A DNA stretch of 64,000 nucleotides from a virus. The notes beneath the pieces were generated by a model that searched no databases, had not been told where the DNA came from, and worked only from the letters and a program-made list of their open reading frames with translations. Positions 34,559-46,173 of this stretch are shown in pieces (within the stretch, counting starts at the first letter, position 1; every line of letters begins with the position of its first letter). Location of the stretch: IMG/VR virus record IMGVR_UViG_3300035180_000254. One strand, 5' to 3'. Both the position numbers and the translations under genes were made by a program.

Positions 34559-35221
34559 TCACTGTAGCGCAACCTTCGGTGCGGTCAGTGCGTACTCAGC
34601 GCCGAGCACACTCAGCAGCTGTTCCGGGCCGTGTTCGGGGAACAGCTTCATGTAACGCTCCAACACGACGTTGTCTTCCTCGCCGTTCCACATCTTGCGG
34701 TACGTGCCTTCCTTGTAGCCATTGGCCTGGCGGAACAGGTTCAGCACGTTCTTGCCGAGGTAGATTTCGTACAGCCGGTCCCAGGTCAGGTCGAAGCGGA
34801 CCATGAGCTGGGCGAACGCCGGGCCGTTGAGCTGGCGCTGAATCGCCGCACTGCCAGCCAGCAGATCAATCAGCTTGCGGGTCTCCACACCTGTGATCTC
34901 GCCGAACGCGTCCGGGTCTTCTTCCAGCTTGGTGAAGTAGGCAGCGATCTCGGTGGCCGCAGCCTCGAAGTCGCCTTCGTGCAGCGCCAGGATGTGGCTC
35001 ATGGCGAAGTGCCAGATGTCCACCAGTTCCAGTTGCATCTGCCCTCGGGTGTAGTGGCCGTCAGCCTTCCACCATTTCCAGCCTAAGCCGTCCAGCATCT
35101 CGGCGGCTTCCATGTAGATGGCGCGATACCAGGAGTAGCCAGCGGCCATCCAGTCAGGGTTCACCACCTGGTTCAGCTTGTCTTGTAGTCGGAGCATGTC
35201 CGATATTTGTTGACGGATCAT
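34559..35221 (-). CDS. dimeric dUTPase / MazG-like nucleotide pyrophosphohydrolase
   Basis: Motifs WYRAIYMEAAEMLDGLGWKWWK and ELVDIWHF, as in the all-alpha dUTPase family. ATGA-coupled start at 35221; the track start at 35242 is an alternative. Confidence 0.6.
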   Translation of the reverse strand: MIRQQISDMLRLQDKLNQVVNPDWMAAGYSWYRAIYMEAAEMLDGLGWKWWKADGHYTRGQMQLELVDIWHFAMSHILALHEGDFEAAATEIAAYFTKLEEDPDAFGEITGVETRKLIDLLAGSAAIQRQLNGPAFAQLMVRFDLTWDRLYEIYLGKNVLNLFRQANGYKEGTYRKMWNGEEDNVVLERYMKLFPEHGPEQLLSVLGAEYALTAPKVALQ

Positions 35222-35646
35222 GCTGCGTTCTCGTTGAGCCACAGGATCAGACCGACCTTGTCTGTGGGCACGTCCACTTCAGTCTCAACGACTTCCTTGC
35301 GCGCGAAGCCCTCTTCATAGAGCGCAGCGCGGGCCTTCACGCCCTCAGCTTTGCTGCCGACCCAGAGGGTCTTGGTTACCTTATCGGCAAGGCTACCGGA
35401 TGCCTTGATTTTGTACAGTCTCACGTTTTTCACTCCTTGGTTAAGTGCCCTACGGGCGTCGCGGACCACGCCCAGAAGCGCGTGGTCCATGTCCTTGGGT
35501 GATACCGATAGCGCTATGTGGCGCGGCGGTACACCATCTCGGCTGACCGACAGCACGGTGTGCGTGCGCTGGCGCAGCACCTCCACCTTCACGTCATCTC
35601 CGAGGGCTTTGATGGCCAGTAACGCGCGACGGTGGATGGCTTTCAT
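35218..35646 (-). CDS. hypothetical protein
   Basis: 142-aa ORF. Confidence 0.65.
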   Translation of the reverse strand: MKAIHRRALLAIKALGDDVKVEVLRQRTHTVLSVSRDGVPPRHIALSVSPKDMDHALLGVVRDARRALNQGVKNVRLYKIKASGSLADKVTKTLWVGSKAEGVKARAALYEEGFARKEVVETEVDVPTDKVGLILWLNENAA

Positions 35647-35659
35647 TGCGTAGTCTTAT

Positions 35660-36265
35660 TTAGATTTTAGATTTGACGGCTAATTCAAACGAAAGCTTTT
35701 GCACATTCATTCGGTGATAAGTTCGCTGGTATGGAATTTTGAGTTCTCGGCACCACTGCGCCAAAGACTGCTTTTTTCCTCGGTATGCAATAAGCCTGAC
35801 GTTGCACCTGTTGTTCTGCACTGCACACGAGGACCATACGCAATTGGCTTTTGAGTACCCTAAGTTTCCGTCGACGCGGTCAATAGACATGCCCACAGGA
35901 CGCTCGCCCATATCGCGAAAGAACGCTTCGAATGAGTCCCACTCAGGTGCCACAGCAATACCGCGTCCACCGTAGTTGGGGTATGAAATGTGGTTAGGGT
36001 TGGAGCAGCGTGCGCGCATTTCCTGCCAGGTCCTGTATGTCCGGCTTACACCCTTCATGTGTGACGCATGTCCGTGGGCGGGAGAACCTATGCGCCATAT
36101 GCACCCGCAGGAAGTCGTCCGCCCTTGACGCAGCGCGTCACCAGTTACCACTTTAAGCCCGCCGCACTTGCACTTGCATACCCAGGCAGCTTTGCCACCC
36201 TCAGGCAATGCAGGTGCCATGACAGTTAGCTTCCCATAGGCGTTACCCAGCTCGTCTTTAGCCAT
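35660..36265 (-). CDS. free-standing homing-endonuclease-like protein (zinc ribbon + YGGRGI family), paralog of 43665-44405
   Basis: YGKLTV, CKCKCGG...SCGC, ARCSNPNHISYPNYGGRGI and DRVDGNLGY blocks. GAGG RBS before the ATG at 36265. Own AT-rich upstream region containing TATAAT. Confidence 0.7.
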   Translation of the reverse strand: MAKDELGNAYGKLTVMAPALPEGGKAAWVCKCKCGGLKVVTGDALRQGRTTSCGCIWRIGSPAHGHASHMKGVSRTYRTWQEMRARCSNPNHISYPNYGGRGIAVAPEWDSFEAFFRDMGERPVGMSIDRVDGNLGYSKANCVWSSCAVQNNRCNVRLIAYRGKKQSLAQWCRELKIPYQRTYHRMNVQKLSFELAVKSKI

Positions 36266-36295
36266 ATACACCTCGTAATAAAAGAATCGGATCTA

Positions 36296-37171
36296 TTATA
36301 AATCTAATTTAGACCTTAGACCTTTAAACGAAGGGTGGCGAGGTAGGTCCTTGCGCCCGATGGGGAAGTGGTTGTACGAGACCAGCGCACCGATTGGAGG
36401 GTTTATCCACATCTGTATCCGGTCGGCTTCAGTAAATCCGGTCCCAATATGAAACTCGACCCCACTGTTTATGTCGCGTACGTGAAGAGCGCCCATGCGT
36501 CCCTTACCGACTTTGTTTTCTTTGTGGCTGCTACGTTTGGTGCGGCCCAGCTCGTTGGTGGTAGCTTCGTTGCCGTTGTGCATCTCTTCGACGACGCCGA
36601 GAACGACGCATTCGTCGGTGAGCATGCGCTTCACCTTCAGAAGGAAGCCCTCCTTGGCGGTGCTGCGGCCGAACTTGTAGGGCGAGTCAGGGTGGCGCAG
36701 GATCACGCCCTCATGGCCAGCCTCTAACGCATTGGCTTCGAACTTATTCAGAGATTCGATGTCGTGGACGGCCACTTGCTCCAATGCCATCAGACGAACA
36801 CCCGCGCCACTGACCGTGCGCAGCATGCGCTTGTAGCGGTCGTAGAAGGGGCGGTCTTCGACCTTGTCGAACACGTAGAAGTTCCAGTCCACGTCCTTCT
36901 TATTCTCGGTCATGACACCACTAACCGTGTCACGGTAGCAAGTGGGGCTGTTGGTCGGTCCGACGATCAGCTCGCCGTCCAGACCCTCAAACGAGGCCTT
37001 GCTGAGCACCGCGCTGATGTGCATGTTCGGGATAGGCTTGAGCGAACGGCTCAGGAGCTGGCCTTTGCGCACGATGGCGCGGATACCGTCGAGCTTGATT
37101 GACGCGAAATACCCAGCACTCCAGTCCAGCATGTCAAGGTCAGCGTTAGTTGCGAGCATCGGACGAAACAT
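36296..37171 (-). CDS. ATP-dependent DNA ligase
   Basis: Motif I IKLDGIR, motif III LDGELIV, motif IV EGVILR, motif V LLKVK. Confidence 0.85.
   Translation of the reverse strand: MFRPMLATNADLDMLDWSAGYFASIKLDGIRAIVRKGQLLSRSLKPIPNMHISAVLSKASFEGLDGELIVGPTNSPTCYRDTVSGVMTENKKDVDWNFYVFDKVEDRPFYDRYKRMLRTVSGAGVRLMALEQVAVHDIESLNKFEANALEAGHEGVILRHPDSPYKFGRSTAKEGFLLKVKRMLTDECVVLGVVEEMHNGNEATTNELGRTKRSSHKENKVGKGRMGALHVRDINSGVEFHIGTGFTEADRIQMWINPPIGALVSYNHFPIGRKDLPRHPSFKGLRSKLDL
36301..36312. promoter_or_regulatory. ATCTAATTTAGA site (copy 2), next to a TATAAT box upstream of the endonuclease gene
   Basis: The minus strand reads ggtctaaattagatttataatagatcc, about 25 nt upstream of the 36265 start. Confidence 0.45.
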
Positions 37172-42416: not shown

Positions 42417-42974
42417 CTATTTGCCGGTAAGGTGTTTCCACGTCTTACCGTTCTTTATGTTTTGGACCGACGACTGAGTCAGCCCATAGGCGTTAGCAAT
42501 GACGCGAGTCAGCCTTATGTCGTCGAGAATCGCCATCACTTGCTGTTCGTTGAGCTTGGCCGAAAGATTGGCCTCGCCCTTAGCACCGTATGCACGGCCT
42601 TTTTCTCGGAGGTCGCGCATGTTGTCTTGATGCGTGCCGAGTCGTAGATGCTCAGGATTCACGCACCCTGGGTTGTCGCACTTGTGCAGAACGTGCATGC
42701 CTCTCGGAATTGGCCCATTGTGCATAACCCATGACCCACGGTGAGCATTTTTCTCGCCGTGGGCGGTCCATATCCCATACCCGCAAGTTACTGTTGCCCC
42801 GATCCATAACCAGCAGTTGGTTATTGAGTCGACCTGGTAACGTTCGCGGAACGGTACTCCGCGCAAGTTCGCTGATTTAAGCGGGTCGCCATATTTCATA
42901 AACGCGCGGTAGTGTTTTTTACAGTACCCGCGACCGACCGACGGCTCGCCGCAAACAGAGCAGGGTGTACGCAT
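42417..42974 (-). CDS. HNH homing endonuclease
   Basis: HVLHKCDNPGCVNPEHLRLGTHQDNMRD (HNH_3 type) plus a C-terminal helix-turn-helix-like tail. Own AAAGGAG RBS and an upstream TATAAT. Sits directly downstream of the polymerase gene. Confidence 0.8.
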   Translation of the reverse strand: MRTPCSVCGEPSVGRGYCKKHYRAFMKYGDPLKSANLRGVPFRERYQVDSITNCWLWIGATVTCGYGIWTAHGEKNAHRGSWVMHNGPIPRGMHVLHKCDNPGCVNPEHLRLGTHQDNMRDLREKGRAYGAKGEANLSAKLNEQQVMAILDDIRLTRVIANAYGLTQSSVQNIKNGKTWKHLTGK

Positions 42975-43012: not shown

Positions 43013-45973
43013 TTATTTACTATAGTTAGAGGCATGCCCTCCTTCGCATGCGAGCGGGATGTCGGGGCACCAGCTGGGCGCTGTGCTCATGACCTTGGTC
43101 ATCAGCGCGAAGCACTGCTTGGCCTGAGCGGTCTTGGGCAGCGCCACAGCTTCGTCGTGTGTGGTCATGACGATGCGGTACTTCTTGCGAATCTGCAGCA
43201 TCTGCCAGGCCACGATGATTCGCGCCAGGGCCTGCACGATGTTCTCGCACAGCAGCCCGCCGTAAATCTTCTTGCGCATGTCGCCGGACTTGTAGGACCA
43301 CTCGTCCCAGCCCTTGTCACTGACGGCCTTGCGCAGCTCGGGGTACTTGAGCGACATGCCGTTAGGGAGCCAGATGGTCTCCTTCTCCCATGTGATCGGG
43401 CCATGACGACCGGACCGGCCAGCGGCCATGTCTTCGATGATCTTGGCACAGATGTCCCAGCCGCCTTTGATCTTGTGATTCGTTCGGCGGTACGTGTTCA
43501 CGATCTGCACGCAGCGGTCCAGCTCGAAGAAGATCGGCGGGCCACCGAGGGCACCCTTGGCCAGGGTCATCTGGAACTTCGGTGCGCCCATCTGGAAACC
43601 AAGTCCGAGAACGCAGTTATGAACGATGACCGGGCCGTCATCAGACATGACTGTGAAACAATGGTTAGGCCCTGCGTTTGCGAGATCGTAAGTTTGCGTT
43701 GTCTGCTTCGAGATCACGAATGCGTTGTTCGAGGTCTTCGATTCGTCGCTTGTTTCCGGTGTTGACAGACTTAGTGGCGAATCTGACGTTGCCTGGGCAG
43801 TACCCGCTGTTGTTGTCGATTCGATCAAACTCAAGCTCAGGTACATCCCATCCAGGTAATGTCTGGACATACCGCAGAAACTCTGCTCCGTCGTTGCACC
43901 AGCCAGGATGAACTGCGATGCCGCGTCGCCCATAGTGCTTATACGAGGCATTGTTCGGGTTACTACAGCGCGCAATTGCTGATGACAAGCGGTTAAGCAG
44001 GCGAGTGCGATGCTCGTCATTCGGCATAGCATCCCTGTAGACCCAGTAGCGTTTTGCGCTTGCCGCAATTTTTGCGCAAGCGTTGCATCGCGTAGAGCGT
44101 CCTGCCTTAAGGCTGCTGACATAGACCATAGACTCGGCCCCGCAAGAGCACTGGCAGACAGGGCGATACCCCCACGGCTTGCCGTCTTTTGACGTGTAAT
44201 GCTCCCACCGTACGACGGTAAGTTCGCCGAACTTAGTGCCGACCGGAAAAGGGAACGGTCGGTAAGGACCTCTTGCCACTCCAGCCACCCACGTTCCGTC
44301 AGGATTTCGTGGTCCGGCGTGGCGGATATTCCCCGGTATGACAGGGTCGTCCTCACTCCTTGCTTTACTAGCCCATCGTGCGTTACCCATGATTTTCCAT
44401 CCCATAGCAAATCGTTAGATCGTATTTGGGGTATAGACTTAAGACCATGGTTTGTCAATACGATGGTGTCTGGTCCGAGGCAGACCTTGCCCACGAAGCG
44501 TTCGGTCTTGTCTTCCTTGGTGATCGGCCGGCCGTAGATCAGCGTGGCGAAGTTGCAGTAGGCGTCGCTACCGGTGCCAGCGTCAGCCGCACGGAACGCA
44601 GCCATGAGGTCATCCTGACCCCACAGCCAGCCGTTCACGCGGGCTTCGATCTGGCCGCTGTCCACCACGCACATCTGGTAGCCCTTGGGTGCCAGGATGG
44701 ACAGGCGCAGCTCACCACCACGGGTGAGGTTCTGCATGTTCATCTTGTTGTTGCCGCCCCACCGGCCCGTGTGAGCGCGGTAGTAGGCATAGCCCACCGG
44801 CAGACTCATGCCGTTGGCACCAGCCTTCAGGAAGCGTTCTGCGCGCGTAATATTCGTCGTGCTTTTAACCGCAAGACGAGCATCGACCAGCGAGCGGATA
44901 CGATCTTGCTTCGCCGAAATCTTAGGTATGTCCTTGACTTTGTTCGGGTCAAGCGCACCGCGCCAGAGGTCAATGTTCTCGGGGAGCGACGTGAACTCGG
45001 CGTCATCCTTTGCGAACGCGTACGACCATTTATCCTCTTCAGCGACAAGGGCCTTCTCCTCTTTGCTCAGCTTGATATACGCCTTGCTGGGCTTCATGGG
45101 CGGGTCGATGCCCTCGGCCCGCAGCAAGTCAGCGAACTTCTCGTTGGAGCCGATGACGCGCTTGATGATCAGCATGTCACGCTCCTCACCGGTCAGCGCG
45201 CGCTCAGCCGTAGTCTTGAGCACGGTTTTGTCGGCGTAGTAGGGCTTGGGGTCCAGCACTGCATAGAACTTGCGCTTGCGTTCGGCCACCTCGCGCTCGT
45301 ACTCTTTCTGCACGCGCGGGATGTCCACCTTCAGCACCGGGTCGCAGAACATGCGGATGGTCATGTCCACCAGGTCCAGCTCGTCGGCAGGGAACTTGGC
45401 GTGCATCTCCTTGAAGATGGCGTGCGTCAGGTCCACGTCTTGGGCGCAGTAGGGCGTCACCGCCTTGACCAGCTTCTGATCCCAGTCGCCCACGCCCTTA
45501 GTGGTCTCCAGCACGCCGTCGAGCTTGGAGCCCTTGCCGTAGAACTGGGCCACCTCGTCCAGGCTCGCACCAATTTCATTGCTGTGCAGGCCACGGGCCA
45601 TGCTCAGCGTGTCGTAGTACTGGAACGGGACGATCTTGTAGACGTGCGAGAGGATGAAGCCGTCGAAGGCCGTGTTGTGGCAGAGCAGGCTGTGCGTGGC
45701 CCAGTTAATGCTCTGCAACGCGGCCATGATGCGTAGCTGCCCGGTGTACACCTTGGTCGGTTTGTTGCCGATCTTGATGCCCACCATCTGTGCCTTGAAG
45801 CGCTTATCACGTACGTACTCAGACGTGCTGAGTTTGGACAGGGTGTAGTCGCTATCCCAATAGCTTTCGAAGTCAATAGTTACGAGGCGGTTCCAGTCAA
45901 CGATCCCAGGCGTGATGTCCGGGCGGTTAATGATCACCTGTGCCTTGCGGCGTATTGCGTCTCCCCATCCCAT
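43013..45973 (-). CDS. family A DNA polymerase with 3'-5' exonuclease domain, interrupted by an intein
   Basis: Exo I TIDFESY, Exo II HNTAFDGF, Exo III YCAQDVD. Pol motif A VVDSGQIEARV; motif B RFVGKV/CVLGLGFQMG, split by the insertion; motif C TTHDEAV. Probable start at 45973 (TGATG coupling); the track start is 46039. Confidence 0.85.
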   Translation of the reverse strand: MGWGDAIRRKAQVIINRPDITPGIVDWNRLVTIDFESYWDSDYTLSKLSTSEYVRDKRFKAQMVGIKIGNKPTKVYTGQLRIMAALQSINWATHSLLCHNTAFDGFILSHVYKIVPFQYYDTLSMARGLHSNEIGASLDEVAQFYGKGSKLDGVLETTKGVGDWDQKLVKAVTPYCAQDVDLTHAIFKEMHAKFPADELDLVDMTIRMFCDPVLKVDIPRVQKEYEREVAERKRKFYAVLDPKPYYADKTVLKTTAERALTGEERDMLIIKRVIGSNEKFADLLRAEGIDPPMKPSKAYIKLSKEEKALVAEEDKWSYAFAKDDAEFTSLPENIDLWRGALDPNKVKDIPKISAKQDRIRSLVDARLAVKSTTNITRAERFLKAGANGMSLPVGYAYYRAHTGRWGGNNKMNMQNLTRGGELRLSILAPKGYQMCVVDSGQIEARVNGWLWGQDDLMAAFRAADAGTGSDAYCNFATLIYGRPITKEDKTERFVGKVCLGPDTIVLTNHGLKSIPQIRSNDLLWDGKSWVTHDGLVKQGVRTTLSYRGISATPDHEILTERGWLEWQEVLTDRSLFRSALSSANLPSYGGSITRQKTASRGGIALSASALAGPSLWSMSAALRQDALRDATLAQKLRQAQNATGSTGMLCRMTSIALACLTACHQQLRAVVTRTMPRISTMGDAASQFILAGATTEQSFCGMSRHYLDGMYLSLSLIESTTTAGTAQATSDSPLSLSTPETSDESKTSNNAFVISKQTTQTYDLANAGPNHCFTVMSDDGPVIVHNCVLGLGFQMGAPKFQMTLAKGALGGPPIFFELDRCVQIVNTYRRTNHKIKGGWDICAKIIEDMAAGRSGRHGPITWEKETIWLPNGMSLKYPELRKAVSDKGWDEWSYKSGDMRKKIYGGLLCENIVQALARIIVAWQMLQIRKKYRIVMTTHDEAVALPKTAQAKQCFALMTKVMSTAPSWCPDIPLACEGGHASNYSK
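43616..44482 (-). mobile_element. intein (289 codons) in polymerase motif B
   Basis: Begins CLGPDTIVLT (Cys1 at 44482-44480) and has a TPDHEILT block B. Ends YDLANAGPNHCFTV...PVIVHN (Asn at 43618-43616), followed by Cys+1. Confidence 0.8.
43665..44405 (-). CDS. homing-endonuclease-like gene nested inside the intein in a different reading frame
   Basis: 246-aa ORF offset by 2 nt from the polymerase frame. Paralogous to 35660-36265: FGELTV, CQCSCG...CNAC, ARCSNPNNASYKHYGRRGI and DRIDNNSGY blocks. The true start may be internal; the conserved part begins near 44240. Confidence 0.7.
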   Translation of the reverse strand: MGWKIMGNARWASKARSEDDPVIPGNIRHAGPRNPDGTWVAGVARGPYRPFPFPVGTKFGELTVVRWEHYTSKDGKPWGYRPVCQCSCGAESMVYVSSLKAGRSTRCNACAKIAASAKRYWVYRDAMPNDEHRTRLLNRLSSAIARCSNPNNASYKHYGRRGIAVHPGWCNDGAEFLRYVQTLPGWDVPELEFDRIDNNSGYCPGNVRFATKSVNTGNKRRIEDLEQRIRDLEADNANLRSRKRRA

Positions 45974-46173
45974 CAGTTGTCCTCCGGCATGCGCGGGCAG
46001 GGTGCCCAGTGAGTCCAGTAGCGGGACTTGCCGTCCCACTGACTGTAGACAGCCACACCGCCAATACCCAGGAGCTGCAGCTTCACGCCGCGCGGTGTGT
46101 CAAGGCCGATCTTTTGCCAGTAGTAGTCTGTTGACACAGCGACCGTCTGGTCCTTGTTGAGGGTGTGGCTCAT
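45973..46173 (-). CDS. hypothetical protein
   Basis: 66-aa ORF whose stop overlaps the polymerase start. Confidence 0.55.
   Translation of the reverse strand: MSHTLNKDQTVAVSTDYYWQKIGLDTPRGVKLQLLGIGGVAVYSQWDGKSRYWTHWAPCPRMPEDN

What the first reader, a model, noticed from the sequence alone, without database searches (positions are those of the whole stretch)
43616..44482. DNA polymerase intein whose homing-endonuclease gene is encoded out of frame inside the intein
The Pol A ORF on the minus strand is interrupted inside motif B. The junctions read ...ERFVGKV | CLGPDTIVLT ... PVIVHN | CVLGLGFQMG...

The insertion is 289 codons long and has clear Hint signatures:
- Cys1, with a block A-like CLGPDT.
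- Block B, TPDHEILT.
- C-terminal YDL...NHCF and VIVHN, followed by Cys+1.

The central ~190 codons in the polymerase frame are Ser/Ala/Thr/Leu-rich and look like off-frame sequence. I see no LAGLIDADG, HNH or GIY-YIG motif there.

A different frame of the same strand (43665-44405, offset 2 nt) encodes a 246-aa protein. That protein is unmistakably paralogous to the free-standing endonuclease-like gene at 35660-36265. Shared blocks are FGxLTV, CxCxCG...CxxC, ARCSNPN..SY..YG.RGI and DR[IV]D.N.GY.

The polymerase precursor therefore has to be translated through ~740 nt that simultaneously encode a separate endonuclease in another frame, and the polymerase frame is stop-free throughout. The HEG ORF fits exactly between the N- and C-terminal Hint segments: its conserved part starts where Hint-N ends, and its stop codon lies in the first residues of Hint-C.

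From memory, canonical inteins carry the endonuclease as an in-frame domain, and split inteins with a free-standing HEG between gene halves have been described. A contiguous intein with an overprinted, out-of-frame HEG would look like an intermediate in intein-HEG association.
Basis: partly seen in the sequence, partly recalled or inferred. Interest (0 to 1): 0.85.

Follow-up and report, generated by a model that had tools for sequence, protein, structure and literature searches.

The report
Polymerase intein hiding an out-of-frame endonuclease-like gene
A phage DNA polymerase gene carries a self-splicing protein insert (intein) whose middle part is really a second gene in another reading frame, probably the enzyme that spreads the insert; the layout is real and shared by hundreds of phages, but the kind was first reported in 2025-2026 preprints.

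Summary
The family-A polymerase ORF (43013-46039, minus) is open through a 289-codon insert (43616-44482) in motif B. A 246-aa ORF (43665-44405) lies in the -1/+2 frame and is paralogous to 35660-36271 (BLASTP E=1e-18).

It is not a sequencing artefact. The same frame relation holds in all 9 phage and contig loci inspected first and in about 85 of 90 loci overall, including Salmonella Jersey-like phages.

Across 66 distinct inteins the wobble position follows the polymerase frame in codons 1-60 and 271-289, and the nested frame in codons about 91-255. The polymerase frame there is only kept stop-free: 66 of 68 sequences have no stop, against about 4.4 stops expected and P(0) of about 0.01 per sequence.

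A profile of the Hint parts matches solved inteins (E=1.2e-5). Intein-less alleles confirm the junction and show patchy presence among near-identical exteins.

The nested protein matches PHROG families labelled HNH endonuclease (E=2e-35). It matches no Pfam HNH model and has no conserved catalytic histidine, so nuclease activity is inferred, not shown.

Out-of-frame endonuclease genes in contiguous inteins were reported for actinophages (2025 preprint) and a cyanobacterial dnaX intein (2026 preprint). This is a new, very large member of a recently described kind.

The parts
43013..46039 (-). Family-A DNA polymerase precursor ORF (1008 aa, 720 aa after removal of the intein). It has a 3'-5' exonuclease domain and a polymerase domain.
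   Evidence: ORF. Pfam DNA_pol_A and DNA_pol_A_exo1. NCBIfam Pol I models. 35-45% identity to the intein-less Pseudomonas phage KPP25 polymerase on both sides of the insert.
43616..44482 (-). Class-1-type intein, 289 codons (Cys1 ... His288-Asn289, followed by Cys+1 at 43613-43615). It is inserted one residue after the Lys of motif B (R..GKV|C|VLGLGFQMG).
   Evidence: Boundaries. The insert is absent from KPP25, which reads VGKT-S-ILGLGYGMG. Invariant C1, T55, H58, D105, H-N across 26-72 homologs. A profile of the Hint parts matches solved inteins: PI-MtuI 1.2e-5, Spl DnaX mini-intein 2.5e-5, Neq Pol, NrdJ-1, DnaB; 15 of 16 hits are inteins.
44213..44482 (-). Hint-N (intein codons 1 to about 90; blocks A and B, CLGPDT ... 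TPDHEILT). Codons 61-90 are a transition zone.
   Evidence: The most variable codon position is polymerase-frame position 3 in codons 1-60 (0.57-0.64, against 0.29-0.43 for positions 1 and 2). AlphaFold2 gives beta strands with pLDDT 69-83 for residues 1-30.
43718..44212 (-). Read-through linker of the intein (polymerase-frame codons 91-255). It is Ser/Thr/Ala/Leu-rich, has no confident fold, and is kept only stop-free.
   Evidence: The most variable position is polymerase-frame position 2 (0.56-0.71), which is position 3 of the nested frame. pLDDT is below 50 for 37-133, 145-184 and 221-262. Stop avoidance. Composition.
43616..43717 (-). Hint-C (intein codons 256-289; blocks F and G, TYDLANAGPNHCF ... 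VIVHN).
   Evidence: The wobble returns to polymerase-frame position 3 in codons 271-289 (0.64 and 0.55). The block is conserved in all homologs. The DnaX mini-intein alignment reaches the VYDI block.
43665..44405 (-). Nested ORF in the -1 (+2) frame: 246 aa from the first ATG (44405), 241 aa from the conserved start ATG at 44390-44388, stop TAA 43667-43665. Putative homing endonuclease (phrog_374-type).
   Evidence: PHROG phrog_374 E=2.1e-35. 122 close homologs at 41-84% identity. AlphaFold2 mean pLDDT 85, above 90 for most of residues 50-220, N-terminal 1-45 disordered. The wobble follows this frame.
43740..44252 (-). Conserved core of the nested protein (aa 52-222). It contains the FGELTV strand, a Cys4 zinc ribbon (C86, C88, C107, C110), a helical region (HRTRLLNRL, ARCSNP), YxxYGxRGI, and a beta-beta-alpha-like DRID...N...N motif.
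   Evidence: Invariant and near-invariant columns. Model secondary structure. Weak hhalign alignment of residues 191-221 to the HNH_3 motif of the protein at window 42417-42974 (E=0.048).
43674..43742 (-). C-terminal leucine-zipper-like helix of the nested protein (aa 222-244), perhaps for dimerisation.
   Evidence: Helix 222-244 in the model. Recurrent weak bZIP and coiled-coil Pfam matches in family members.
44388..44403 (-). Likely translation initiation region of the nested gene: GGGATGGA (44403-44396, the codons for Trp27-Asp28-Gly29 of Hint-N), a 5-nt spacer, then ATG 44390-44388 (overlapping Trp32).
   Evidence: A start codon sits at this position in 61 of 66 inteins (ATG 42, GTG 17, TTG 2). 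TGGGAYGG lies upstream in nearly all. Sequence. Function as a ribosome-binding site is inferred.
35660..36271 (-). Free-standing paralog of the nested gene (203 aa), between a DNA ligase gene (36296-37171) and a small ORF next to a dUTPase gene.
   Evidence: BLASTP E=1e-18. phrog_374 E=2.1e-53. Neighbours identified.

Best explanation
The insert at 43616-44482 (minus strand) is an intein in motif B of a phage family-A DNA polymerase, and it carries a separate gene overprinted in the -1 frame.

**Shown**
- The two ends of the insert (codons 1 to about 90 and about 256-289) evolve as protein in the polymerase frame. They carry all the Hint splicing signatures.
- The middle (about 165 codons) evolves as protein only in the -1 frame. 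In the polymerase frame it is merely kept free of stop codons.
- The -1 frame encodes a well-folded protein of 241-246 aa with a zinc ribbon, a helical core and a leucine zipper. It belongs to a very large family of phage and bacterial proteins, with a free-standing paralog in the same genome.
- Homologous inteins with the same frame offset occur in hundreds of phages and are patchily present among near-identical polymerases.

**Inferred**
- Ribosomes reading the polymerase frame make a 1008-aa precursor. Hint-N and Hint-C fold together, with the Ser/Thr/Ala-rich read-through segment as a disordered loop.
- Protein splicing removes all 289 residues and joins ...RFVGKV to CVLGLGFQMG..., which restores the O-helix.
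- Other ribosomes start internally at ATG 44390. This start is preceded by a GGGATGGA Shine-Dalgarno-like stretch that is itself the Trp-Asp-Gly codons of Hint-N. They make the nested protein.
- In mixed infections that protein recognises, and probably cuts, intein-less polymerase alleles near motif B. Repair then copies intein plus gene (homing).
- The arrangement most likely arose when a free-standing gene of this family landed in the loop of a mini-intein (or replaced an older endonuclease domain). Selection on the essential polymerase then purged stop codons from the read-through frame.
For: **Frames and paralogy**
- Frames and ORFs.
- Paralogy.

**Recurrence of the layout**
- The same -1 offset with an open polymerase frame occurs in Pseudomonas phage MR14, Vibrio phage 97.13, EBPR siphovirus 2, Salmonella phage Ent1, E. 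coli phage fPoEco01 and three contigs.
- It also occurs in nearly all of 80 metagenome loci.
- Of 72 delimited inteins, 70 have no stop.

**Selection per frame**
- Codon-position switch across 66 distinct inteins.
- Stop avoidance: 4.4 stops expected, P(0)=0.01 per sequence, 66 of 68 observed with none, third frame 13.8 stops.

**Intein identity**
- Hint homology to solved inteins: E=1.2e-5 to 1e-4 (weaker).
- Invariant C1, T55, H58, H-N and +1 Cys or Ser.
- Exact extein junction against intein-less KPP25.

**Mobility**
- About 170 Jersey/Kaguna-like records have the junction split, against 542 contiguous, with both states above 95% extein identity.

**The nested protein**
- phrog_374 E=2e-35.
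- pLDDT 85.
- BFVD structural matches to phage proteins named HNH or AP2 homing endonucleases, E down to 1e-12.
- 171,869 family representatives.

**Expression**
- Conserved internal start in 61 of 66 inteins.
- No conserved -1 slippery site.
- No promoter-like site inside.
- No intron RNA family.
Against: - Nothing here shows that the precursor splices or that the nested ORF is translated.
- The nested protein matches no Pfam HNH, Endonuclease_7, GIY-YIG or LAGLIDADG model, even at E<=10.
- It has no significant fold match in the PDB; the best is PacI at E=0.88.
- It has no conserved histidine. At the position where HNH_3 proteins have the catalytic His, a weak alignment (E=0.048) places Asp194, followed by invariant Arg195. 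It may be a DNA-binding protein rather than a nuclease.
- The Shine-Dalgarno-like stretch and the start codon are forced by conserved Hint-N residues (WDGxxW). Their conservation therefore does not prove selection for initiation. GTG codons at residues 40 and 43 are alternative starts.
- The AlphaFold2 model of the polymerase-frame intein was built on a shallow alignment (mean pLDDT 45.5). The 'disordered loop' rests mainly on the codon-position evidence.
Confidence: 0.72

Rival explanations
1. The anatomy is as described, but the nested protein is not a nuclease. It would be a sequence-specific DNA-binding protein (zinc ribbon plus degenerate beta-beta-alpha plus zipper). It would then act as a regulator, as a targeting subunit for another nuclease (for example the HNH_3 enzyme encoded just downstream at 42417-42974), or as a selfish passenger with another mode of spread.
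For: - No conserved His, and D194-R195 sits where HNH proteins have (D/H)-H.
- No Pfam nuclease model matches at E<=10 in any of 55 members.
- No PDB fold match.
- PHROG matches cover only inner parts of longer profiles, for example positions 198-355 of 617 in phrog_374.
- BFVD neighbours include 'DNA-binding domain protein' and AP2/ERF-named proteins.
- Many family members are arrays of repeated modules joined to HTH domains.
Against: - The gene sits exactly where inteins carry their homing endonuclease.
- The family behaves like free-standing homing genes: a paralog lies next to the ligase gene and about 980 phage records carry copies.
- The intein is patchily present among near-identical polymerases, which needs some homing activity.
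- The downstream HNH_3 gene is absent in relative L007, which still has the intein.
Confidence: 0.2
2. The nested protein is made by -1 ribosomal frameshifting from the polymerase frame, as an N-extein/Hint-N/HEG fusion, rather than by internal initiation.
For: - The nested frame is the -1 frame of the polymerase and overlaps Hint-N by about 60 codons.
- Salmonella phage SS3e has an annotated 268-aa 'HNH endonuclease' that is Hint-N fused in frame to the HEG core.
Against: - Only 6 of 66 inteins have any canonical X_XXY_YYZ heptamer in codons 16-95, none at a conserved place and none in the window.
- In about a third of the inteins the -1 frame has a stop just upstream of the conserved start (frame-2 codon 28), so a shift further upstream could not reach the HEG.
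- The SS3e fusion is a single record and may be an indel.
Confidence: 0.04
3. It is an ordinary in-frame bifunctional intein, or a split gene, miscalled because of two compensating indel errors in this assembly.
For: None beyond prior expectation. One relative has one stop in Hint-N and another has two in the overlap (L019, L044), which shows that errors or real disruptions do occur.
Against: - The same frame offset and intein lengths of 278-300 codons are found in more than 70 independent sequences, including finished genomes of cultured phages sequenced by many laboratories.
- The periodicity switch is gradual and located at the Hint borders in all of them.
Confidence: 0.01
4. It is a decaying element: an inactive intein remnant or a pseudogenised endonuclease that is drifting, with the polymerase tolerating the insert.
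For: - The Ent1 annotators saw 'splicing domains' only.
- The insert lies in a surface-exposed helix region in some polymerases (my own knowledge).
Against: - There is strong purifying selection in the nested frame (position-3 diversity 0.56-0.72, against 0.18-0.57 at positions 1 and 2).
- The nested-protein model is confident.
- Splicing residues are invariant.
- The insertion breaks the O-helix motif R..(G/A)K....G..YG, which is needed for catalysis, so an unspliced product should be dead (established knowledge of family-A polymerases).
Confidence: 0.03

Closest known systems
[quoted passage not shown]
   Same: A contiguous intein whose splicing domain and extein share one frame, with an endonuclease-type ORF in 'frame 3' on the same strand filling the place of the endonuclease domain. 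The in-frame translation of that part has no recognisable structure. The authors propose invasion of an intein by a free-standing HEG, and note that annotation pipelines miss such genes.
   Different: - Host genes there are terminase, minor capsid, thymidylate synthase and DNA polymerase III alpha of actinophages. Here it is a family-A polymerase of phages of Proteobacteria and of uncultured phages.
[quoted passage not shown] Here the ORF starts about 60 codons inside Hint-N.
- Their sampling was described as sparse. Here 455 metagenome stretches and about 170 phage records are available.
- A Gordonia phage minor-capsid intein that shares Hint-N similarity has no same-strand copy of this HEG family.
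Cyanobacterial dnaX intein with an out-of-frame homing endonuclease (bioRxiv 10.64898/2026.09.14.751524)
   Same: By its title and the start of its abstract, it is an intein in a replication gene that encodes its homing endonuclease out of frame and is sporadically distributed.
   Different: It is in a bacterial chromosome rather than a phage, in a different extein, and presumably with a different endonuclease family. The text could not be opened, so I could not make a detailed comparison.
Fractured genes: split inteins with a free-standing homing endonuclease gene between the gene halves (Dassa et al. 2009, PMC2677866)
   Same: A separate endonuclease ORF related to free-standing phage HEGs lies between Hint-N and Hint-C coding parts. 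The arrangement is seen as support for the 'splicing domain first, endonuclease later' origin of inteins.
   Different: - There the host gene is broken into two ORFs and spliced in trans, and the endonuclease is Vsr-like.
- Here the host ORF is continuous and the endonuclease-like gene is overprinted.
- One relative (L044) has two stops in the polymerase frame inside the overlap, and a second, apparently split intein upstream. It may be the fractured state of the same element.
ShiLan domain: hidden out-of-frame HNH endonuclease inserted in a mycobacteriophage methylase gene (Arsenault et al. 2025, PMC11855218)
   Same: An endonuclease ORF lies in another frame of a host gene that stays open through it. 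The open question of how the inner ORF is translated is the same.
   Different: ShiLan has no detectable splicing domains, so the read-through peptide is thought to stay in the methylase. Here the read-through peptide is flanked by Hint-N and Hint-C and should be excised.
Canonical bifunctional inteins (for example PI-SceI, PI-MtuI) and mini-inteins
   Same: Cys1, block B TxxH, terminal His-Asn, +1 Cys, and insertion in a catalytic motif of a replication enzyme. The Hint profile matches the PI-MtuI, DnaX, DnaB and NrdJ-1 inteins.
   Different: Canonical inteins carry a LAGLIDADG or HNH domain in frame, and mini-inteins have a short loop. Here there is a loop of about 165 residues with no function of its own in that frame.
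'Intein-containing DNA polymerase precursor' of Jersey-like Salmonella phages (SETP3, vB_SenS-Ent1/2/3 and many others)
   Same: It is the homologous intein at the same motif-B site, with the same -1-frame ORF (44% identity to the window's nested protein).
   Different: - In the records the intein is annotated as 'encoding splicing domains' only.
- In LPSE1 the nested ORF is called as a hypothetical protein while the polymerase is left unannotated.
- I found no paper that connects the two.

Membership tests
Intein (Hint superfamily, class 1) | Cys, Ser or Thr nucleophile at the first residue of the insert | tested here: met
   Cys1 (TGC 44482-44480). It is invariant in the aligned homologs and is Cys in all 72 delimited inteins.
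Intein (Hint superfamily, class 1) | Block B TxxH | tested here: met
   TPDH at residues 55-58. T55 and H58 are invariant.
Intein (Hint superfamily, class 1) | C-terminal His-Asn followed by Cys, Ser or Thr at +1 | tested here: met
   VIVHN|C in the window. H and N are invariant, and +1 is Cys in 70 and Ser in 2 of the 72 inteins.
Intein (Hint superfamily, class 1) | Sequence or fold homology of the N and C parts to known Hint domains | tested here: met
   - A profile of 26 Hint-N+Hint-C sequences matches PI-MtuI at 1.2e-5, Spl DnaX mini-intein at 2.5e-5 (covering profile positions 3-116), and Neq Pol, NrdJ-1 and DnaB inteins.
- Single sequences do not reach Pfam thresholds.
- The AlphaFold2 model was too poor for a fold search.
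Intein (Hint superfamily, class 1) | An in-frame insert at a conserved site, absent from homologous host proteins | tested here: met
   KPP25 polymerase is colinear and lacks the 289 residues. 542 Jersey/Kaguna-like records are contiguous across the site.
Intein (Hint superfamily, class 1) | Protein splicing activity | not testable with these tools
   It needs expression of the precursor. It is inferred from the invariant catalytic residues and from the position inside the essential motif B.
Inteins with an out-of-frame homing endonuclease gene (2025-2026 preprints) | The extein plus Hint frame is continuous and stop-free across the insert | tested here: met
Inteins with an out-of-frame homing endonuclease gene (2025-2026 preprints) | A conserved endonuclease-type ORF in another frame of the same strand, between Hint-N and Hint-C, under its own purifying selection | tested here: met
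Inteins with an out-of-frame homing endonuclease gene (2025-2026 preprints) | Endonuclease of the endonuclease VII-like type (as in the actinophage cases) | tested here: inconclusive
   No Pfam Endonuclease_7 hit and no 1E7D fold match, but a weak match to phrog_1035 'endonuclease VII' (2.6e-5). It is probably a different family.
HNH / His-Me finger endonucleases | Match to curated HNH models | tested here: not met
   No Pfam HNH, HNH_3 or similar hit for the window protein or any of 55 relatives at E<=10. No NCBIfam hit. Only PHROG families carrying the label match (phrog_374 2.1e-35, phrog_2081, phrog_3377).
HNH / His-Me finger endonucleases | A beta-beta-alpha-metal motif with the catalytic (general base) histidine | tested here: not met
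   - A beta hairpin plus helix exists at residues 192-218 and aligns weakly with the HNH_3 motif (E=0.048).
- The His position holds Asp194, the next residue is invariant Arg195, and no His column is conserved.
HNH / His-Me finger endonucleases | DNA cleavage activity | not testable with these tools
   It needs purified protein and a target-site substrate.
Fractured genes (split intein + free-standing HEG, Dassa et al. 2009) | The host gene is divided into two ORFs that end and begin with split-intein halves | tested here: not met
   The window ORF is continuous. Relative L044 does show stops in the overlap.
Group I/II intron carrying a homing endonuclease ORF | A ribozyme structure around the ORF, with no need for an open host frame | tested here: not met
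   No Rfam match at E<=1 in 43300-44800. The host frame is kept open by selection. The ends evolve as protein in the host frame.

The most novel reading that the evidence does not exclude
This polymerase intein family may record, within one homologous element, the whole path by which inteins and homing genes associate.
- Free-standing gene: the paralog in the same genome.
- Overprinted gene inside a contiguous intein: most members.
- Fractured gene with split intein halves: L044-like members.

On this reading the element also hops between at least four insertion points 1-5 codons apart in motif B. In addition, the nested protein would be a new type of homing nuclease that lacks the catalytic histidine of HNH enzymes. 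Its ribosome-binding site and start codon would be hard-wired into the invariant Trp-Asp-Gly-x-x-Trp codons of Hint-N, so that splicing domain and homing gene cannot be separated by recombination.
Probability: 0.2. Interest if true: 0.75.

Novelty: new member of a known kind. Interest (0 to 1): 0.6.

Why it matters
- **A missed gene.** Inteins listed as 'splicing domain only' or 'decaying' may still be fully mobile, because their homing gene is hidden in another frame. Here this holds for a long-annotated intein of the Jersey-like Salmonella phages, which are being studied for use against Salmonella. Gene callers either miss the nested gene or, as in LPSE1, call it and drop the polymerase.
- **A large test set.** With hundreds of sequences, this family seems to be much the largest sample of the arrangement available. 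That allows tests that the sparse actinophage cases could not support: per-frame selection, stop-codon purging, movement of the insertion site, and the transition to split genes.
- **An experimental system.** Intein-plus and intein-minus phages with more than 95% identical polymerases are in culture, so homing, splicing and translation of the inner frame can be tested directly.
- **An open question.** The arrangement bears on whether endonucleases joined pre-existing splicing domains.

Tried and rejected
- **Near-identical DNA in the phage collection:** none, so the window's own phage is not in it.
- **Pfam and NCBIfam on both frames:** no Hint, LAGLIDADG, HNH, GIY-YIG or AP2 model reaches significance on single sequences.
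- **Fold search of the nested protein against the PDB:** nothing below E=0.88. Only the viral predicted-structure library gave matches.
- **Structure of the polymerase-frame intein:** only 9 extra sequences could be used, mean pLDDT was 45.5, and the PDB fold search on it was meaningless.
- **Search for an in-frame version of this endonuclease-like domain inside an intein:**
  - None of the best 150 family representatives carries Hint-N or Hint-C, except the SS3e fusion. This samples 150 of 171,869 and is not exhaustive.
  - Ten long representatives showed HTH, SNF2 or methylase parts, and no Hint.
- **-1 frameshift site:** not conserved.
- **Internal sigma-70-like promoter:** none.
- **Intron RNA families:** none.
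- **Gordonia phage minor-capsid intein as a possible link to the actinophage cases:** no same-strand copy of this gene family.
- **Viral-contig scan with the single protein:** only one free-standing relative.
- **The 2026 dnaX preprint:** it could not be opened.
- **Hint / HEG / extein distance comparison:** only moderate correlations (Spearman 0.41-0.51) with discordant pairs. This suggests transfer but is not a proper test, and I do not rely on it.

Full report
**1. What is in the window**

On the minus strand, ORF 43013..46039 encodes a 1008-aa protein. It has a 3'-5' exonuclease domain and family-A polymerase motifs.

Between ...TERFVGKV and CVLGLGFQMG... lies a 289-codon insert (44482..43616). 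It starts CLGPDT, contains TPDHEILT and ends TYDLANAGPNHCF...VIVHN, followed by Cys.

I translated the insert in all three frames:
- Frame 0 is open.
- Frame +1 is broken by many stops.
- Frame +2 (equivalently -1) holds a 246-aa ORF, 43665..44405.

That ORF is 31% identical over 189 residues to the free-standing ORF 35660..36271 (E=1e-18). The central 165 polymerase-frame codons are 52% Ser/Thr/Ala/Leu.

**2. It is not an assembly artefact**

tblastn against 50,697 phage records found the nested protein and the polymerase-frame insert at the same places in many genomes, with the same 170-nt (mod 3 = 2) offset. These genomes include:
- about 140 Salmonella Jersey-like phages (SETP3, SE2, Ent1-3 and others)
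- E. coli Kagunavirus phages
- Pseudomonas phage MR14
- Vibrio phage 97.13
- EBPR siphovirus 2

I read the DNA of five of these genomes plus three contigs that carry close relatives. All have a polymerase ORF open through the insert and an ORF of about 250 aa one frame behind it.

A scan of metagenome contigs gave 455 stretches encoding relatives. I kept 80 of them, and in nearly all the hit is spanned by a long ORF at offset +1. I could set intein boundaries in 72 sequences (278-300 codons). Seventy of these have no stop in the polymerase frame.

**3. Which frame is under selection where**

I used 66 distinct inteins and protein-guided codon alignments, and measured nucleotide diversity at each codon position in windows of 15 codons.

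| Intein codons | Most variable position | Diversity there | Diversity at the other two positions |
|---|---|---|---|
| 1-60 and 271-289 | polymerase-frame position 3 | 0.55-0.64 | 0.07-0.43 |
| 91-255 | polymerase-frame position 2 (= nested-frame position 3) | 0.56-0.71 | 0.20-0.58 |

Codons 61-90 and 256-270 are transitional.

A protein domain cannot have its second codon positions as the fastest-evolving sites. So the middle of the intein is not a domain in the polymerase frame. It is the read-through of a gene that is selected in the other frame.

The read-through frame is nevertheless protected. I resampled synonymous codons of the nested gene, using the family's own and already biased codon usage. 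This gives 4.4 stops per sequence and P(no stop) of about 0.01. Observed, 66 of 68 sequences have none, while the third frame averages 13.8 stops.

**4. The insert is an intein**

- **Profile matches.** Single sequences do not reach Pfam thresholds. A profile of 26 Hint-N+Hint-C sequences matches solved inteins and almost nothing else: PI-MtuI 1.2e-5, Spl DnaX mini-intein 2.5e-5 (across both halves), then the Neq Pol split intein, NrdJ-1 and DnaB (an 8-sequence profile gave weaker matches).
- **Catalytic residues.** Cys1, Thr55, His58, the block-F Asp and the terminal His-Asn are invariant. The +1 residue is Cys or Ser.
- **Junction.** The intein-less polymerase of Pseudomonas phage KPP25 aligns on both sides and reads VGKT-S-ILGLGYGMG where the window reads VGKV|C|VLGLGFQMG. 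This is the R..(G/A)K....G..YG O-helix motif, motif B of family-A polymerases (my own knowledge). An unspliced product should therefore be inactive.
- **Not an intron.** No intron RNA family matches.
- **Not shown.** Splicing itself is inferred.

**5. The nested protein**

- **Sequence family.** It matches PHROG families labelled HNH endonuclease (phrog_374 2.1e-35, and phrog_2081, 3377, 8790) and weakly an 'endonuclease VII' family (2.6e-5). It matches no Pfam or NCBIfam model.
- **Predicted structure.** With a 55-sequence alignment AlphaFold2 gives a confident model: mean pLDDT 85, above 90 through most of residues 50-220. The first 45 or so residues, which overlap Hint-N, are disordered. 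The model shows beta hairpins with a Cys4 zinc site (C86, C88, C107, C110), a helical core, a beta-beta-alpha unit at 192-218 and a long C-terminal helix with leucine-zipper character.
- **Fold searches.** Nothing in the PDB resembles the model significantly. In the viral predicted-structure library it matches phage proteins named HNH homing endonuclease, AP2/ERF-domain protein or DNA-binding protein.
- **Family size.** The family has 171,869 cluster representatives at E<=1e-3, many with repeated modules.
- **Caveat on catalysis.** The alignment has no conserved histidine. A weak profile alignment (E=0.048) puts Asp194 where HNH_3 enzymes have the catalytic His, followed by invariant Arg195.

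I therefore treat 'homing endonuclease' as the most likely function, from position and behaviour, but not as a demonstrated one.

**6. How the inner gene could be expressed**

- **Conserved start.** A start codon at frame-2 codon 30 (window ATG 44390-44388, Met6 of the listed ORF) is present in 61 of 66 inteins. It is preceded at a suitable distance by TGGGAYGG.
- **Limit of that evidence.** These bases are the codons of the invariant Hint-N residues Trp27-Asp28-Gly29 and Trp32. The signal is built into the splicing domain, so its conservation cannot be taken as independent evidence.
- **Upstream mini-ORF.** In about a third of the inteins an upstream ATG is closed by TGA two codons before this start.
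- **Alternatives checked.** GTG codons at residues 40 and 43 are alternative starts. No conserved -1 slippery heptamer exists, and there is no promoter-like site inside the insert.

Internal initiation on the polymerase mRNA is the simplest reading.

**7. Evidence for mobility**

I searched the spliced junction of Salmonella phage Ent1.
- 542 records have it contiguous.
- About 170 records have it split into two places about 0.9 kb apart.
- Both states occur among polymerases more than 95% identical: for example S119 is contiguous at 98.2%, while 'sidste' and 'Jersey' match each half at 100%.

Homologous inteins sit at four neighbouring points of motif B.

| Residues between the motif-B Lys and Cys1 | Number of inteins |
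|---|---|
| 0 | 1 |
| 1 (includes the window) | 31 |
| 2 | 3 |
| 5 | 37 |

Distances between Hint parts, nested genes and exteins are only moderately correlated, with discordant pairs. This suggests transfer, but I give it little weight.

**8. Prior knowledge**

[quoted passage not shown] The endonuclease there is endonuclease VII-like and lies in frame 3. They propose invasion of an intein by a free-standing gene.
- **Same group, ShiLan.** They also described a hidden out-of-frame HNH gene in a methylase that has no splicing domains (PMC11855218).
- **2026 preprint.** A preprint title reports an out-of-frame endonuclease in the cyanobacterial dnaX intein. I could not open it.
- **Split inteins.** Split inteins with a free-standing Vsr-like gene between the halves are older (PMC2677866).
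- **This family.** I found no paper that notes the nested gene in the Jersey-like phage polymerase intein. In GenBank the Ent1 intein is annotated as 'encoding splicing domains'. In LPSE1 the nested ORF is called a hypothetical protein and the polymerase is not annotated.

The kind is therefore known, very recently. This family, its endonuclease-like protein and its size are new.

**9. Verdict**

The anatomy is certain. Dual use of the sequence is shown by selection patterns.

Still inferred:
- splicing
- internal initiation
- homing

The main open point is whether the nested protein is itself a nuclease.

I rate the finding as a new member of a recently described kind, with interest 0.6. Reasons:
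- It turns a widely annotated 'mini-like' intein into a complete mobile element.
- It offers a large data set.
- It comes with cultured intein-plus and intein-minus phage pairs for direct tests.

Noticed in passing
L024, L017, L071/L072, L020 and others; window site 43613-43615 / 44483-44485: Homologous inteins carrying the same -1-frame gene are inserted at four different points of polymerase motif B: 0, 1, 2 or 5 residues after the conserved Lys (n = 1, 31, 3, 37). At the +5 site the +1 Cys replaces a Leu of intein-less polymerases. So the element has shifted or re-inserted within a stretch of about 15 nt.
   Followed up: partly
L044:1-3900 (ERZ1026856 NODE-391): In this relative the polymerase frame has two stops inside the overlap, while the nested ORF stays intact (273 codons open). 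The same polymerase gene has a second intein upstream. Its N part ends in a stop and its C part is in another frame, preceded by a zinc-ribbon remnant (FRCACGWEG...CRTCSAKRR). It looks like a doubly fractured gene with split inteins, but it could be assembly error.
   Followed up: partly
L019:2424-3293: There is a single stop codon in Hint-N (EHGWAE*SEAL) of an otherwise intact intein and nested gene. It is either a pseudogene or an error.
   Followed up: no
P0128 (Salmonella phage SS3e, 'HNH endonuclease', 268 aa): The annotated protein is Hint-N (from GGFKDIMAV...) fused in frame to the nested protein's core. This means a one-base shift between the two frames in that record. Whether it is a real mutation or a sequencing error is unknown.
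   Followed up: partly
window 42417-42974 (-): An HNH_3 endonuclease gene (Pfam E=8.9e-17) lies immediately downstream of the polymerase. The close relative L006 has one at the same place and L007 does not. It is therefore a second, sporadic free-standing homing-type gene in the replication module.
   Followed up: partly
window 35660-36271 (-) and neighbours 34559-37171: The free-standing paralog of the nested gene lies between an ATP-dependent DNA ligase gene (36296-37171) and a small ORF next to a dUTPase_2 gene (34559-35242). This is a typical intergenic position for a free-standing homing gene. Its presence or absence in relatives was not checked.
   Followed up: no
L092 (Salmonella phage LPSE1, KY379853.1:450-1193): In this GenBank record the nested ORF is annotated (hypothetical protein gp39, UniProt A0A1L7DRS1), and the polymerase that contains it is not annotated at all. 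In most other records the reverse holds. Gene callers pick one of the two overlapping genes.
   Followed up: yes
L012, L013, L015, L021 and about 18 more: In about a third of the inteins the first in-frame ATG of the nested frame opens a three-codon mini-ORF (ATG GGA TGG TGA) that ends two codons before the conserved start. This could couple or tune initiation.
   Followed up: no
P0221, P0200: Some members of the nested protein's family are fused in one ORF to an SNF2 helicase N-terminal part, or lie upstream of a DNA methylase domain. These may be further cases of this gene family inserted into replication or modification genes.
   Followed up: no
L008:2412-8138: In this 40-kb contig the polymerase frame is open for 1909 codons, far longer than other polymerases of the group. 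It may hold further inserts or a fusion with a neighbouring gene.
   Followed up: no
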